A stretch of 64,000 nucleotides of DNA, from NCBI GenBank assembly GCA_951406725.2, contig OX597827.1:68386001-68450000 (forward strand), given 5' to 3'. Under the pieces are notes generated by a model that searched no databases, had not been told where the DNA came from, and was given only the letters and a program-made list of their open reading frames with translations. The position numbers were made by a program, and so were the translations under genes. Shown here piece after piece: positions 5,546 through 54,745 of this stretch. Origin of the DNA: Octopus vulgaris (Eukaryota). Every line of letters starts with the position of its first letter. The stretch's first letter is position 1.

Positions 5546-5614
5546 TGTTGTATAAACCAGTTTTGTGGTACCACAATGTTTCAATTAACTGACTCATCAT
5601 TTCCGTCTTTTCAG

Positions 5615-5790
5615 GTGAAAACTATTATATGTACGAAAGTATGGAGGCTAAAGTGCTTGACGGTTGGCCAAAGAAAATCTCGGAAGGTTTTGGTCCTAAA
5701 CCAAATGGCACTGATCGCATACCAAACAACGTGGACAGTGTCTTTTTTGACATGAGAGACAGCAACATATATTTCTTTAAAGATGACATG
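5615..5790 (+). CDS. MMP21: MMP21-like, hemopexin exon
   Basis: ttttcag|5615, donor 5790|gtaaat, phase 1 to 0. Encodes (G)ENYYMYESMEAKVLDGWPKKISEGFGPKPNGTDRIPNNVDSVFFDMRDSNIYFFKDDM (hemopexin PK.ISEGF and D..F...IYFFK motifs). Confidence 0.92.
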
Positions 5791-5928
5791 GTAAATATCA
5801 ACAAAATCATTTATACTTCATTCACTACAACCACTAGTAGTAGCAACATCAGTATAATTTTGACTACTACTGCTCCTGCTATAATCCTTTGCATCATGAT
5901 TATTATTATTATCATTATTATCATTGTT

Positions 5929-6142
5929 AAGGCGGCGAGCTGGCAGAAACGTTAGCGCACCGAGCCGTATTTCGTCTGCCGTTATGTTCTGAGTTCAAAT
6001 TCCGCCGAGGTCGACTTAGCCTTTCATCCTTTCGGGGTCGATATATTAAGTACCAGTGAAACATTGGATCGATGTAATCGACTAGACCCCCCCCCCACAC
6101 ACACACACACAATTTTAAGCATTGTGCTTATAGTAGAAAGGA
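5929..6142 (+). mobile_element. SINE family A, tail variant A2
   Basis: Family-A head and body ending ttgtgcttatagtagaaagga. Confidence 0.8.
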
Positions 6143-6522
6143 CCAGAAAGAACCATTACTATCGTTGTTGCTGTAACAGTCGTAGAAGTAGTTAAAGCCG
6201 TCATTACCATGAAACTCATTTAAACAGATCCCTAAACTCAAATGGTAAATGGAAACCGCGCTGTTCTATTTACATTCCTGCTTTTACTTCTGATCTTAGT
6301 TTTGTCTTGTTTTATGCCGTTTTTTGTTTGTTTATTTGTTAGTTTTTTTTTTCACTTTAAAACCCCGAAATATCTCAAGCCACGGTTCGTGTTTGTGAAA
6401 CTTTTCATGGCAGTCAACTTCCTTTCGGATATCCCATCCCTCACCACCCAGTTTCTCCAACACTACACAGCATCCATTTCATACAGCTATTTCCAGTAGC
6501 ACCACAGGCATTAGTCCAAAGT

Positions 6523-6642
6523 TTATATATATATATATATATATAAGCATGTATGTATGTATCTATGTATACGTAGATGCATACATATATATATATATAT
6601 ATATATATAGCATGTATGTATGTATCTATGTATACGTAGATG

Positions 6643-6679
<37 letters not shown>

Positions 6680-6711
6680 CATGTATGTATGTATCTATGT
6701 ATACGTAGATG

Positions 6712-6760
<49 letters not shown>

Positions 6761-6775
6761 ATGTATACGTAGATG

Positions 6776-6812
<37 letters not shown>

Positions 6813-6820
6813 AGTAGATG

Positions 6821-6856
<36 letters not shown>

Positions 6857-6900
6857 CATGTATGTATGTATCTATGTATACGTAGATGCATATATATATA
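6523..6900. repeat. Compound tandem repeat: (TA)n interleaved with a catgtatgtatgtatctatgtatacgtagatgcata unit
   Basis: Unit visible about 5 times with variable TA spacers. Confidence 0.85.
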
Positions 6901-6944
6901 TATACATGTATATGTTATGATATGTATACACTTAATATTTATGA

Positions 6945-6992
<48 letters not shown>

Positions 6993-7091
6993 CTCCTTAA
7001 AAACGTGTGTGTGTGTGTGTGTGTGATTATGTATATTTGTATGTAGGGGAATGTTTATGGGCACGAGTGTACGTGCGTGTGTATATGTGAG

Positions 7092-7124
<33 letters not shown>

Positions 7125-7602
7125 CATAAATATTTCTTAGATTATGTAAAATTCGGGTTATTTCCATTGTTGTTATTCGTTTTTAACCACCATCTACCAC
7201 AGGGGAGGCTATGTAAGAAATTTAATAGACGTCGTTTCAACAGTAAATAGCGTATCGTATTCAAGGCATTCTTTGAGAGTGTAGACTATTCTCTCAGGGC
7301 ATTCATTTGAAATTTCTAAATAGTTTTTTGTTTTGTTGTTTTGTTTTATTGTGTGTTTTCTGCTTCTTTTTATGCTTGTTCTTTTTGTGTGTGTGTGCGC
7401 GTGTGTGTGTTTTTCTTTTGCTTGAGACCATTGTGTTAAAAATAGTGTCAACCACAACCAGCCCCGCTCTCTCCTCGGCGACCTTCAATCCTCTGTCCTT
7501 AACTATACGTCTTCATCTAACATCTGATGTTACAGATCGACGGGATCCTTTGATAAACTCAAAGCACAACATTGATAGGCAGCGAGATGGACACAGATAT
7601 AT

Positions 7603-26810: not shown

Positions 26811-27060
26811 GCATATGGCGGAGTGATTAAGAACGCATGCTACTAACCCCAAGATTTCGATTTCTATTCCAGGCAGTGACCTGAATAATAATAAGAATAA
26901 GAAGAATAATAATATCGAAAAATACCTTAGGAATTAGAACCTAGGTTCGAAATTTCCCCAAGACACCTGATGAAGGCTGGAGGGTATATCAGCTGAAACG
27001 TTGTGTTAACAACAAACAAGATGAGGACAAATATCCGTCAAATGTAAATAATGTAAATAA
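26811..27060 (+). mobile_element. Family E: tRNA-like head + (AAT)n + hammerhead-bearing Penelope-like tail
   Basis: gcatatggcggagtg...ctactaacccc...ttccaggcagtgacc head; gacac-CTGATGA-a-ggctg..cagct-GAAA-cg-TT-gtgtt at 26962-27007. Confidence 0.8.
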
Positions 27061-34933: not shown

Positions 34934-35078
34934 TACGAGACGGTGTCGAAAAATCCCTGGCTTTAGGTAAAAGAAGCCGCAGAAGGATCAGTTAATTATG
35001 CCCACGGGCATATGGCGTAGTGGTTAAGAGCACGGGCTACTGACCCCAAGATTCCGAGTTCGATTTCAAGCAGTGACT

Positions 35079-35138
<60 letters not shown>

Positions 35139-35156
35139 GTAGTAATAATAATAATA

Positions 35157-35223
<67 letters not shown>

Positions 35224-35532
35224 CAACATCGAAAAATTCCTTAGGAACGAGAACCCAGGTTTGAAATTTCCCCGAGGCCCCTGATGAAGGCCGGAGGGTA
35301 TATCAGCTGAAACGTTGTGTTAACAACAAACAAGATGAGGACAAATATCCGTCGAATGTAAATAATATAAATATTGTACGTAATTCCTCATATCTTAAAT
35401 ATAGAACTGTATTAATTTTGGTTTTAATTAACATATTCCCCTCTCATATTCAAACTTATTGCAAATGTCCTTCAGATGGTCTAGGTTTTTCGCAATACCC
35501 TTAAAGCCAAGAAATTTTCAGCATCCCTTCTA
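34934..35532. mobile_element. Mariner-like MITE interrupted by a family-E insertion
   Basis: Imperfect TIRs tacgagacggtgtcgaaaaatccctggcttta / taaagccaagaaattttcagcatcccttcta. Confidence 0.55.
35001..35411 (+). mobile_element. Family E element, full length, with TSD
   Basis: A box TGGCGTAGTGG, B box GAGTTCGATTTC, long (AAT)n, CTGATGA at 35281 and GAAACGTT at 35309. Flanked by ttaattatg (34992-35000) and ttaattttg (35412-35420). Confidence 0.82.
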
Positions 35533-45761: not shown

Positions 45762-45791
45762 TTGTATGTGTGTGTGTGTGTGTGTGTGTGT

Positions 45792-46056
45792 GGAGGCACA
45801 ATGGTCCAGTGGGTAGGGCAGCGGACTCGCAGTCGTAGGATCGCGGTTTCGATTCCCGGGCGTTGTGTGTGTTTATTGAGCGAAAACACCTAAAAGCTCC
45901 ACGAGGCTCCGGCAGGGGGTGGTGATCCCTGCTGTACTCTTTCTCCCACTCTTTCTCTCTTTCTTCTGTTGGCCTGCTCGCTTAGCCAGCGGGGTGGCGT
46001 CGTTCGAAGTCTACAACAATGCGAACGCATTGTGACCAGCGATGTGTAGCAATATC

Positions 46057-46057
<1 letters not shown>
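45792..46057 (+). mobile_element. SINE, head C + tail iii
   Basis: C head followed by a distinct ctgctcgcttagccagcgggg...gcattgtgaccagcgatgtgtagc tail. Confidence 0.75.
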
Positions 46058-46088
<31 letters not shown>

Positions 46089-46394
46089 AAGAGAGAGAAA
46101 GAGAGAGGCTCGCAATAACCCAGTGGTTAGGGTAGCGAACTCGCGGTCGTAGGATCGTGGTTTCGATTCCCAGACCTGGCATTGTGAGTGTTAGGGATCT
46201 TTCTAGTGTGATGAATCCCAAGAGTGGATTCCTTATGCGTTTAAATGTTATCTGTATTTTATGAGTAATACATAGTTTTGGGATTAAATTTCTACCCGCT
46301 AGGCCACATTTCTCTTCCATATGATTAAGTATATATATATACACTCACATATAACTATATACATATATAATTATACTGTATATAATTGTTCCTT

Positions 46395-46749: not shown

Positions 46750-46956
46750 AACGATTATGTATGGAAAAATGGAGACCACCTCCCCCTGTGGGATGAAGTT
46801 AAAATAATAGACAGAGAACACCATTGGAAAATACGAAAACTAAAAGAAGCAGCACGTGTGCTAGGACACAACAACCTCCTAATCAGACCGAGTGCAGATA
46901 TGAATAGCATATGGGAACCGGTATTAAGGAAGGATAAGAAACTATCAGATTTATAA
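46750..46956 (+). pseudogene. Penelope-like element ORF C-terminus (end of the GIY-YIG endonuclease region)
   Basis: Open frame translated by hand: NDYVWKNGDHLPLWDEVKIIDREHHWKIRKLKEAARVLGHNNLLIRPSADMNSIWEPVLRKDKKLSDL*. It matches the H...W.EVKI.DRE..W..RK.KEA...IW.P.L pattern of Penelope/Poseidon C-termini. Not in the ORF track. Confidence 0.78.
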
Positions 46957-46980
46957 GACCCTAAAATTCAGTCCGTAATT

Positions 46981-47238
46981 GCCCACAGGCATATGGCATA
47001 GTGGTTAAGAGCGCAGGCTACTAACCAAAAGATTCCGAGTTTGATTCCAAGCAGTGACTTGAATAATAATAATAACAGGTTCGAAATTTCCCCAATACAC
47101 CTGATGAAGGCTGGAGGGTATATCAGCCGAAACGCTGTGTTAACATCAAACAAGATGAGGACAAATATCCTTCAAATGTAAACTATGTAAATATTGTAAA
47201 TAATGTACATAATTCCTCATCTCTTAAATATAAAACTG
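46981..47238 (+). mobile_element. Family E unit as the 3' UTR/pLTR of the Penelope fragment
   Basis: Starts 24 bp after the stop codon: tRNA-like head, short (AAT)n, CTGATGA at 47101 and GAAA at 47129. Confidence 0.82.
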
Positions 47239-48132: not shown

Positions 48133-48343
48133 ATATTTACATTATTTACATTTGACGATATTTGTCCGCATCCTGTTTATTGTTAGCACAACGTTTCGGC
48201 TGATATACCCTCCTGCCTTCATCAGATTATTATTATTATTATTATCATTATTATTATTATTCAGGTCACTGCCTGGAATCGAACACTGAATCTTGGGGTT
48301 AGTAGCTCGCGCTCTTAACCACTATGCCATATGTCCGTGGGCA

Positions 48344-48374
<31 letters not shown>

Positions 48375-48588
48375 AAGAAGAAGAAGAAGAAGAAGAAGAA
48401 GAAGAAACAACATCGAAAAATACCTTAGAAATGAGAACCCAGGTTCGAAATTTCCCCAAGACACCTGATGAAGGCTGGAGAGTATATCAGCCGAAACGTT
48501 GTGTTAACAACAAACAAGGACAAATATCCGTCAATTGTAAATAATGTAAATAATGTACATAATTCCTCATCTCTTAAATATAGAACTG
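48133..48588. mobile_element. Family E composite: inverted copy (-) + (GAA)n + direct tail (+) with an intact hammerhead at 48460-48505
   Basis: gacac-CTGATGA-a-ggctg gagagtatat cagcc-GAAA-cg-TT-gtgtt. Flanked by gcagtcaatact (48121-48132) and gcaatcaatact (48588-48599). Confidence 0.8.
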
Positions 48589-48599
48589 CAATCAATACT

Positions 48600-48988
48600 G
48601 TTACATATTGTTATTCACTTGTTCTTTCACATCATTCGTGTTTATAACAATATTCCTTTGTTTCTTTCCTCCTTGTAATTCTGTCTTGATAGTCCCTATC
48701 CGCTTTGCATCCCTTTTATGCACCACATTGTTTTCCCATAATCCGCTCCAGAACTCTTTGGCTTGATTTGCATCAGGAGCAACATTTTCCCCATTCGATG
48801 CAGTACCAGATAGGTTCATGCATTCCATAATCCAAGAATGTGGGATCGTATCGTACGCTTTACTATAATCGATCTATGACATGGCTAAGTTGATTTTCCT
48901 CCTCTTGCAGCCACTAAGTACAGTTTTGTCAATCAGGAGTTGATCTTTGGTACCTCTGTACTTACGCTTGCAACCCTTCTGCTCATCA
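48600..48988 (-). mobile_element. Dong/R4-like RT fragment (rearranged)
   Basis: Minus strand: [54 protein letters not shown], then APD...KEFWSGLWENNVVH. Confidence 0.85.
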
Positions 48989-49116
48989 TAATCAGCATTA
49001 TTATTAGTTCAAATTCCACCGGGATCGATAAATTATTAAGTACCAGAGAAACACTGGGTCGATGTTATCGACTAGTCCCCTCTCCCCAAATTTGAGGCCT
49101 TGTGCCTCCAGTAGAA

Positions 49117-50725: not shown

Positions 50726-50766
50726 CCAGACTGATGAAGAGCAATGACTCTGAAACTAGTCTCTGG
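50726..50766 (+). ncRNA. Minimal type I hammerhead ribozyme motif (Penelope-type)
   Basis: ccaga-CTGATGA-agag caatga ctct-GAAA-ctag-TC-tctgg: intact core, 5-bp stem I, 4-bp stem II, palindromic stem III, GUC site. Confidence 0.8.
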
Positions 50767-51094: not shown

Positions 51095-51135
51095 CCAGAC
51101 TGATGAGGAGCTATGACTCTGAAATTCGTCTCTGG
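51095..51135 (+). ncRNA. Second tandem copy of the hammerhead motif
   Basis: ccaga-CTGATGA-ggag ctatga ctct-GAAA-ttcg-TC-tctgg; the following ~60 bp also match the first copy. Confidence 0.72.
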
Positions 51136-54712: not shown

Positions 54713-54745
54713 TTTAACGTTTCGAGCAAAGCTCTTCTTCAGAAA
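54713..54745 (-). ncRNA. Minimal hammerhead-like motif
   Basis: ttt-CTGAAGA-a-gagc ttt gctc-GAAA-cg-TT-aaa; related to 21069-21104. Confidence 0.5.

What the first reader, a model, noticed from the sequence alone, without database searches (positions are those of the whole stretch)
46750..47238. Penelope 3' end with a built-in tRNA-derived Pol III head and hammerhead: source of a SINE/retrozyme-like family (family E)
Seen: a 68-codon frame resembling the Penelope GIY-YIG C-terminus stops at 46956. 24 bp later comes a ~72-nt tRNA-like head (A box TGGCRTAGTGG, anticodon-like loop ctACTaa, B-box-like GAGTTYGATTCC), an (AAT)n tract and a tail with CTGATGA-a-stem II-GAAACG(T/C)T. The same head+microsatellite+hammerhead unit occurs without the ORF at 26811, 35001 and 48133. 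Known: Penelope-like elements carry minimal hammerheads with palindromic stem III in their pLTRs; SINEs normally borrow LINE tails; schistosome Sm-alpha is a precedent for a tRNA-like promoter plus hammerhead. Inference: an autonomous PLE holds an internal Pol III cassette in its 3' UTR/pLTR, whose transcript is retroposed on its own as a PLE-dependent, self-cleaving SINE. I do not know of this being described in cephalopods.
Basis: partly seen in the sequence, partly recalled or inferred. Interest (0 to 1): 0.88.

Follow-up and report, generated by a model that had tools for sequence, protein, structure and literature searches.

The report
Penelope retrotransposon with built-in tRNA promoter
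A Penelope-type jumping gene carries a tRNA-like sequence at the front of its terminal repeat, and most of its thousands of genomic copies begin right there, likely because RNA polymerase III starts there and the element's own enzyme copies these RNAs back into DNA as short SINE-like pieces.

Summary
46753-47238 is a 5'-truncated copy of a high-copy Penelope-like element (PLE; RT plus C-terminal GIY-YIG-type nuclease). In the family the nuclease stop codon is followed by 30 nt, a tRNA-Arg-like head with A and B boxes, (AAT)n, and then the start of the next ORF, which overlaps a minimal hammerhead and ends in the PLE 'tail'. Exact 18-mer counts fall 6.5-fold across the head's 5' edge (6097 to 936) but only 8% over the next 88 nt; 52 of 74 sampled head copies start at -10..+9. 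So head-initiated RNA is the main template. The sense strand of the 2.6-kb family consensus has no TTTT run (P 0.003-0.09 by null), so Pol III might transcribe the whole coding element. Pol III use is untested. Ten literature searches found no PLE with a tRNA-derived pLTR.

The parts
46753..46956 (+). 3' end of the PLE ORF (C-terminus of the GIY-YIG-type endonuclease), 5'-truncated; 67 codons plus stop
   Evidence: 93.5% to the family consensus; other copies extend it into VYSIPCSC..Y.GET and RT; 60% to P0001 C-terminus
46957..46979 (+). short spacer between stop codon and head
   Evidence: fixed in the family; spacer 18-mer 936 exact genome matches
46980..46991 (+). 12-nt palindrome; upstream wall of 5' ends (-8/-7), likely transcription start, also a fold-back site
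46987..47062 (+). tRNA-Arg-like head with A box 46994-47004 and B box 47037-47048 (predicted type 2 Pol III promoter)
   Evidence: alignment to genome tRNAs, z 8.7; head 18-mer 6097 matches
47063..47075 (+). (AAT)n microsatellite, length variable among copies
47076..47238 (+). N-terminal coding part of the ORF as repeated in the pLTR (ATG segment deleted in this copy), ending at the long 'tail' end
   Evidence: runs seamlessly into the ORF in tandem copies; reading frame conserved in P0003, P0124, P0149
47096..47141 (+). minimal type I hammerhead: stem I 47096-47100/47137-47141, CUGAUGA 47101-47107, extra A, stem II 47109-47114/47123-47128, GAAA 47129-47132, predicted cut after 47136; U16.1 is C here, so this copy is predicted inactive
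   Evidence: features as in PMC4209133
26811..27060 (+). head-start copy (5' end +1, short 3' end)
34999..35414 (+). head-start copy (5' end -8, long 3' end)
48134..48343 (-). head-start copy (5' end -8, internal deletion, short 3' end); one arm of an inverted pair
48410..48588 (+). headless partner arm (hammerhead, long 3' end) of the inverted pair, preceded by a (GAA)n tract

Best explanation
This is a Penelope-like retrotransposon whose terminal repeat (pLTR) begins with a tRNA-derived head that likely acts as an internal RNA polymerase III promoter, and the element's own RT-endonuclease likely copies RNAs started there into the short SINE-like pieces that make up most of the family. Shown: the unit is ORF, stop, 30 nt, head, (AAT)n, then the ATG, hammerhead and first ~165 nt of the next ORF; copies end 3' at two sites about 40 nt apart and mostly begin 5' at the head; insertions are often inverted pairs with one long and one short 3' end. 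Inferred: Pol III starts at about -7 (13 nt before the A box). By analogy with the anole PLE, the protein binds the ORF N-terminal RNA and starts reverse transcription internally at the two tail sites, so an RNA needs no defined 3' end and every head-started RNA has an RT start site about 250-350 nt from its 5' end. The short copies are therefore solo pLTRs made by the autonomous lineage, not an independent SINE family. The window's copy is one of the ~15% made from a longer RNA and truncated inside the nuclease region.
For: Exact CpG-free 18-mer counts along the element: hammerhead 9368, head 6097, spacer 936, nuclease 857, ORF N-terminus 115; log drop per nt 0.044 at the head edge against 0.001 upstream and 0.0009 through the ORF. 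5' ends of 74 head pieces from three samples not chosen by their 5' side: 52 at -10..+9, 3 beyond -10, 19 inside the head; 31 of the 52 have no fold-back junction at the palindrome. The wall lies 6-7 nt before tRNA +1, with A and B boxes at tRNA spacing. Of 74 copies carrying the ORF N-terminus, 9 have a head directly upstream; 6 of these start at -8..+3 (4 by the script's class plus L448 and L456 read by eye), 1 inside the head, 2 in the upstream nuclease; one runs about 900 nt into the ORF (L481). 3' ends are bimodal: 101 and 97 of 245, like the two RT starts in PMC11167929 (main text parts 1-2 read). No T4 run in the 2638-nt consensus: P 0.03 by synonymous shuffle, 0.0025 by composition-drawn codons, 0.017 mono- and 0.087 dinucleotide shuffle; 2 of 36 intact distant PLE ORFs are T4-free over about 1.6 kb. 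N7, the free position of CUGANGA, is the only non-CpG core site with a common variant (T 71, A 22, C 5%).
Against: No RNA evidence for Pol III: three RNA-seq runs give equal depth on both strands and no start or end peak (ordinary cDNA libraries, dominated by read-through of embedded copies). 21 of the 52 peak ends have a fold-back junction at the palindrome, and the 74 include duplicated loci and both arms of some insertions. None of the 6 head-start copies followed downstream is a complete head-ORF-head unit. T4 absence is weak on its own: A-rich LINE ORFs in the same genome have only 2 T4 runs in 2.7 kb (L151) and 2 in 3.4 kb (L182). Rfam and ARAGORN do not recognise the head, and an unrelated SINE head in this genome scores as well against it (up to 69 versus 64 for tRNA-Arg), so the donor is uncertain. 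18-mer counts depend on each word's mutability.
Confidence: 0.7

Rival explanations
1. The 5' peak is a reverse-transcription artefact of the element's life cycle: on a long Pol II RNA the cDNA folds back or stalls at the palindrome in front of the head; the head is a passenger with no promoter role.
For: 21 of 52 peak ends show fold-back junctions, many extending the palindrome by a few nt; the palindrome is the most GC-rich of the 9 short hairpins found in the consensus.
Against: 31 of 52 peak ends lack such a junction; the stem is only 4-5 bp; no comparable wall was seen among 5' ends inside the ORF, which holds 7 such hairpins; a cDNA that has reached an RNA 5' end would fold back at the same place; the rival does not explain intact A/B boxes or the lack of T4.
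Confidence: 0.15
2. The pLTR start site is a Pol II internal promoter, as in Drosophila virilis Penelope, that happens to sit at a captured tRNA or SINE head.
For: PLE pLTRs are known to hold the start site (PMC8557442, passages); a protein-coding RNA is normally capped Pol II product (established knowledge).
Against: The wall coincides with the tRNA 5' end to within 7 nt, both boxes are intact in the consensus and T4 is absent.
Confidence: 0.09
3. The short unit is an independent self-cleaving SINE or retrozyme family with its own master copies and circular RNA intermediate.
For: Solo copies keep promoter boxes, ribozyme and RT start sites, so some could retrotranspose again; retrozymes derived from pLTRs are described (bioRxiv 10.64898/2026.07.22.740005).
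Against: No class-specific marker: subfamily variants are shared between 54 ORF-linked and 82 head-start copies; no ends at the cut site; no full-unit tandem array in 13 random sites or 59 motif-picked loci (read).
Confidence: 0.05
4. A SINE inserted by chance next to a PLE fragment at this one locus.
For: None found.
Against: The same junction in 27 of 29 other loci and 936 exact spacer matches.
Confidence: 0.01

Closest known systems
Penelope/Poseidon PLEs, e.g. anole PAc (PMC11167929; main text parts 1-2 of 4 read)
   Same: Single RT plus C-terminal GIY-YIG ORF; partial tandems; ORF start overlapping a minimal hammerhead; two 3' ends inside the ORF N-terminus; no ends at the ribozyme cut site; an Anolis carolinensis protein (P0091) is among the homologs at 44% RT identity.
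   Different: No tRNA-derived head or Pol III promoter is mentioned in the parts read; none was found in 79 distant PLE loci from metagenome contigs (best score 51 against 64 for this family).
Non-LTR retrozymes as non-autonomous PLE derivatives (bioRxiv 10.64898/2026.07.22.740005, parts 1-2 of 5 and term search; PMC7229834, passages)
   Same: Short, non-coding, pLTR-related units with a type I hammerhead.
   Different: Those are defined as tandem arrays with circular RNAs; the preprint has 0 mentions of tRNA, Pol III or octopus. Here copies are single or inverted pairs, start at a tRNA head and track the autonomous lineage.
Schistosome Sm-alpha SINE-like repeats (review PMC6765202, passages; original paper not read)
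   Same: Pol III-type promoter plus hammerhead in a short repeat.
   Different: Often tandem, canonical hammerhead, no autonomous partner sharing the whole unit is named in the passages read; here the unit is physically part of the autonomous element.
TRIMp3: Cassandra, Helenus, Ajax (PMC10886601, passages)
   Same: A small-RNA-derived Pol III promoter inside a terminal repeat.
   Different: Those are non-autonomous LTR elements with PBS and PPT; that paper argues their autonomous partners must use Pol II. Here the head sits in the autonomous, non-LTR-type PLE itself.
Octopus tRNA-derived SINEs OK, OR1, OR2 (Ohshima and Okada 1994; seen only as citations in PMC4824008 and PMC4758252)
   Same: tRNA-derived heads; probably the same kind of host genome (inferred).

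Membership tests
EN+ Penelope-like elements | One ORF with RT followed by a C-terminal GIY-YIG endonuclease | tested here: met
   RT PF00078 E 5.8e-8; family protein aligns end to end with P0003 (57% over 830 aa). The nuclease is assigned by motif and homology: Pfam GIY-YIG misses this family but hits relative P0039 (E 1.1e-5). One frameshift near nt 600 remains in my consensus.
EN+ Penelope-like elements | Partial tandems forming pLTRs, with inverted 5'-truncated partners | tested here: met
   L087, L092, L096, L098 tandems; inverted pairs at 9 of 13 random sites and at window 48134-48588
EN+ Penelope-like elements | 30-40 bp optional tail (two 3' ends) | tested here: met
   3' ends at unit positions 140-159 (101 of 245) and 180-195 (97 of 245)
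EN+ Penelope-like elements | Minimal type I hammerhead in the pLTR (extra nt after A9, G10.1-C11.1, palindromic 15.2-16.2) | tested here: met
   Family consensus has all three; 116 of 216 pieces keep the core, 59 also the CG palindrome; cleavage itself not tested
Penelope/Poseidon clade | Placement in an RT tree with labelled references | not tested
   Only pairwise homology to insect, echinoderm, barnacle and anole proteins
tRNA-derived SINE | tRNA-derived head with A and B boxes at the 5' end of copies | tested here: met
tRNA-derived SINE | Transcribed by RNA polymerase III | not testable with these tools
   RNA-seq lay uninformative
tRNA-derived SINE | 3' part shared with an autonomous partner | tested here: met
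   the whole unit is shared with the PLE
tRNA-derived SINE | Own lineage of master copies, separate from the partner | tested here: not met
   subfamily markers shared at equal frequency; sample 54 plus 82 copies
Non-LTR retrozyme | Tandem arrays of two or more hammerhead-bearing monomers | tested here: not met
   no full-unit array; only local repeats of hammerhead-bearing parts (L252, L303)
Non-LTR retrozyme | Self-cleaved, circular RNA intermediate | tested here: inconclusive
   no genomic ends at the cut site; circular RNA not testable
Octopus OK/OR1/OR2 SINEs | Sequence identity to the published consensus | not testable with these tools
   no sequence of these families, Repbase, Dfam or SINEBase on hand

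The most novel reading that the evidence does not exclude
The tRNA head drives the whole element: an autonomous, protein-coding retrotransposon transcribed by RNA polymerase III, its 2.6-kb unit purged of TTTT terminators, making an uncapped mRNA whose start codon lies just upstream of its own hammerhead, and shedding SINE-like solo pLTRs as a by-product of internal RT initiation. This would be a SINE arising inside its own autonomous partner.
Probability: 0.3. Interest if true: 0.85.

Novelty: new variant of a known kind. Interest (0 to 1): 0.64.

Why it matters
SINEs are usually thought to arise when a tRNA-derived promoter joins the tail of a LINE in a separate, non-autonomous element. Here promoter and RT-recognition signal are already joined inside the autonomous element, and the internal RT start of PLEs removes the need for a defined RNA 3' end; this gives a direct route from PLE to SINE-like or retrozyme-like repeats and may explain Sm-alpha-type elements. 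It makes an open question testable: which polymerase transcribes PLEs and how their RNA is translated. If Pol III makes the full mRNA, it contradicts the usual view that autonomous retrotransposons need Pol II or Pol I. Practically, on the order of 10^4 repeats in this genome would be misfiled as an ordinary tRNA SINE.

Tried and rejected
Pfam on the window peptide and on the nuclease segment of L061: no family. ARAGORN and Rfam on the window and three head loci: no tRNA or hammerhead call at the element. Single-strand folding of head and ribozyme: z between -1.6 and +0.2, not significant; one copy shows stems I and II. A 38-47 nt intron joining a downstream ATG to the ORF was considered and rejected: relatives read in frame through the hammerhead and no such joint is listed in RNA reads (low ORF depth). 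No RNA holder on record was listed by the run search. DNA-type contig lay: all 30 bins of a tandem copy are covered in four coded organisms (A, D, E, F), but no listed contig bridges the nuclease-head junction by 31 letters on both sides, and depth is not copy number, so it is not used as evidence for the junction. Search of G000 with a distant PLE protein returned only this family in the 30 loci cut, so no in-genome PLE control without a head was obtained. Alignment with a distant relative's ribozyme failed through my coordinates. Earlier findings of the scan: nothing. Literature: ten searches found no PLE with a tRNA-derived or Pol III pLTR; subscription journals, Repbase Reports and Dfam are not searched, Lunse et al. 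on PLE hammerhead dimers was not held, and no supplements were read (those of PMC8557442 and of the retrozyme preprint could list this family). Target-site duplications were not analysed.

Full report
Setting. The window lies in G000 (2.80 Gb, 227 contigs, chromosome-scale contigs numbered to at least C30). Size and the abundance of tRNA-headed SINEs suggest an octopus; that is my inference from recalled facts and was not tested. Coordinates 'H' below count from the first G of the head's GGCATATGG (window 46988 = 0); 'B' counts along the unit after the microsatellite.

Observation. The frame fragment is a repeat: 2652 first-look candidates, 40 scored, the best 29 other loci 91-95% identical, 27 of them followed by a BLAST-detectable head. 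Upstream, other copies continue for 0 to 1400 nt into a VYSIPCSC..Y.GET nuclease motif and an RT (PF00078 E 5.8e-8). L061 is a nearly full unit. A homolog search with a 301-aa RT piece gave 884 proteins, among them insect, sea urchin, barnacle-cluster and anole PLE-type proteins; the family protein aligns with P0003 over 830 aa at 57%.

Anatomy. In tandem copies the ORF stop is followed by spacer, head, (AAT)n and about 185 nt that run without a seam into the ORF. These 185 nt carry an in-frame ATG at B22, the hammerhead (B51-96) and both 3' end sites. Relatives P0003, P0124 and P0149 conserve the peptide read through the ribozyme, and in anole PAc the ORF also starts within the ribozyme and RT starts at two internal sites in the ORF N-terminus (PMC11167929, parts 1-2 read). 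Here 3' ends fall at B140-159 (101 of 245) and B180-195 (97 of 245), and in inverted pairs one arm is usually long and the other short (read).

The head. It aligns colinearly with this genome's tRNAs; best of 10 types is Arg-TCG (score 64, z 8.7), tRNA +1 at H-1, A box at H+6, B box near H+49. Only 10 tRNA types were available, Rfam and ARAGORN do not call it, and a common unrelated SINE head scores 56-69 against it, so the donor may be a tRNA or an older SINE. None of 79 distant PLE loci from metagenome contigs shows such a head; the closest relatives (57-75% aa) had no DNA on hand, so the age of the capture is unknown.

The 5' step. Exact 18-mer counts: hammerhead 9368, head 6097, spacer 936, nuclease 857, ORF N-terminus 115, reversed controls 0. 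The loss per nt at the head edge is about 45 times that in the ORF. In 1.2 Mb of evenly spaced sample there were 13 sites, which suggests on the order of 10^4 heads in the genome. Of 74 head pieces from the random, pattern-picked and hammerhead-picked sets, 52 start at H-10..+9, 19 inside the head and 3 further upstream; the set includes a few duplicated loci and both arms of some insertions. In the head-picked set, which is biased to full heads, 6 of 36 extend beyond H-10. The wall is at H-8/-7. 21 of the 52 have fold-back junctions at a 12-nt palindrome there; 31 do not. Among 74 copies with the ORF N-terminus, 9 have a head in tandem upstream, 6 starting at the head and 2 in the upstream nuclease; the six end 55 to about 900 nt past the tail and none is a whole unit.

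No separate SINE lineage. Linked non-CpG markers H62, B60 and B129 define subfamilies, and their frequencies do not differ between 54 ORF-linked and 82 head-start copies (p 0.72, 1.0, 0.21). Nine sites differ at p<0.01, all through decay or gaps in the ORF-linked set, which was picked for likeness to the window's copy and is slightly more diverged (4.4% against 3.6%).

Ribozyme. The consensus has the features listed for minimal PLE hammerheads in PMC4209133 (parts 1-2 of 4 read). The free N7 is the only non-CpG core site with a common variant, which points to selection in master copies. A 3-nt deletion around the cut site occurs in about 13-16% of pieces. 116 of 216 pieces keep the core. The window's copy has C at 16.1 and is predicted inactive. 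Copy ends do not gather at the cut, as reported for PAc, so integrated copies come from uncleaved RNA.

Pol III terminators. The 2638-nt consensus (95 fragments, median depth 52) has 13 TTT and no T4 on the sense strand. Nulls give P 0.0025-0.087. Distant PLE ORFs have more T4 than expected (337 against 220) and 2 of 36 have none. Against this, A-rich LINE ORFs of the same genome have only about 2 T4 per 3 kb. Suggestive, not proof.

RNA. Three RNA-seq runs lay 5604-7482 reads each on a tandem copy, equally on both strands, about 100-fold deeper on the pLTR than on the ORF, with no start or end peak: compatible with read-through of embedded copies and silent on Pol III.

Verdict. A real PLE family with a tRNA-derived cassette fixed at the pLTR edge, whose head-start copies outnumber ORF-linked ones about 5.5 to 1. 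It works like a SINE source but fails the test of a separate SINE lineage and of retrozyme arrays. PLE, hammerhead, tail and solo pLTRs are known; the tRNA head inside an autonomous PLE was not found in ten searches (listed in Tried and rejected), though Repbase, Dfam and subscription papers were out of reach. New variant of a known kind; interest 0.64; Pol III start 0.7; Pol III transcription of the whole coding unit 0.3.

Noticed in passing
window 45791-46060, 46104-46195, about 35560, 49155, 3510: Copies of another abundant tRNA-headed SINE with a different body; many more in the random sample.
   Followed up: partly
window 48590-49100 (-): Fragment of a LINE RT (IDYSKAYD-type motif; R4/Dong-like by recall) directly after the inverted PLE pair; long open ORFs of a similar LINE family in L151 and L182.
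   Followed up: partly
window 50731-50755 and 51100-51124 (+); 54720-54742 (-): Further CUGANGA...GAAA motifs unrelated to this family; could be hammerheads of other elements.
   Followed up: no
window 45793-45880, 46100-46195: SINE insertions sit next to long (TA)n, (TG)n and (GA)n microsatellites.
   Followed up: no
L226 (G000:C12:25267077-25270148): Cluster of 7 tRNA-Cys-like genes in 3 kb, some with altered anticodons.
   Followed up: no
L252 1169-1618: Three direct repeats of the hammerhead-bearing part (B3-104) after one head; the only array-like case seen.
   Followed up: no
L256, L257, L259, L260 (G000:C29): Same fold-back insertion with the same flank at four places on one contig: probably segmental duplication.
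   Followed up: no
L347 4001-5617 and L317 694-2433: Distant PLE ORF stretches with no T4 run (7.4 and 2.9 expected); T4 runs occur in their flanking parts and no tRNA head was found.
   Followed up: partly
L330 7698-8465: Six 135-bp tandem repeats scored as tRNA-Cys-like at relaxed ARAGORN threshold, 2 kb from a PLE.
   Followed up: no
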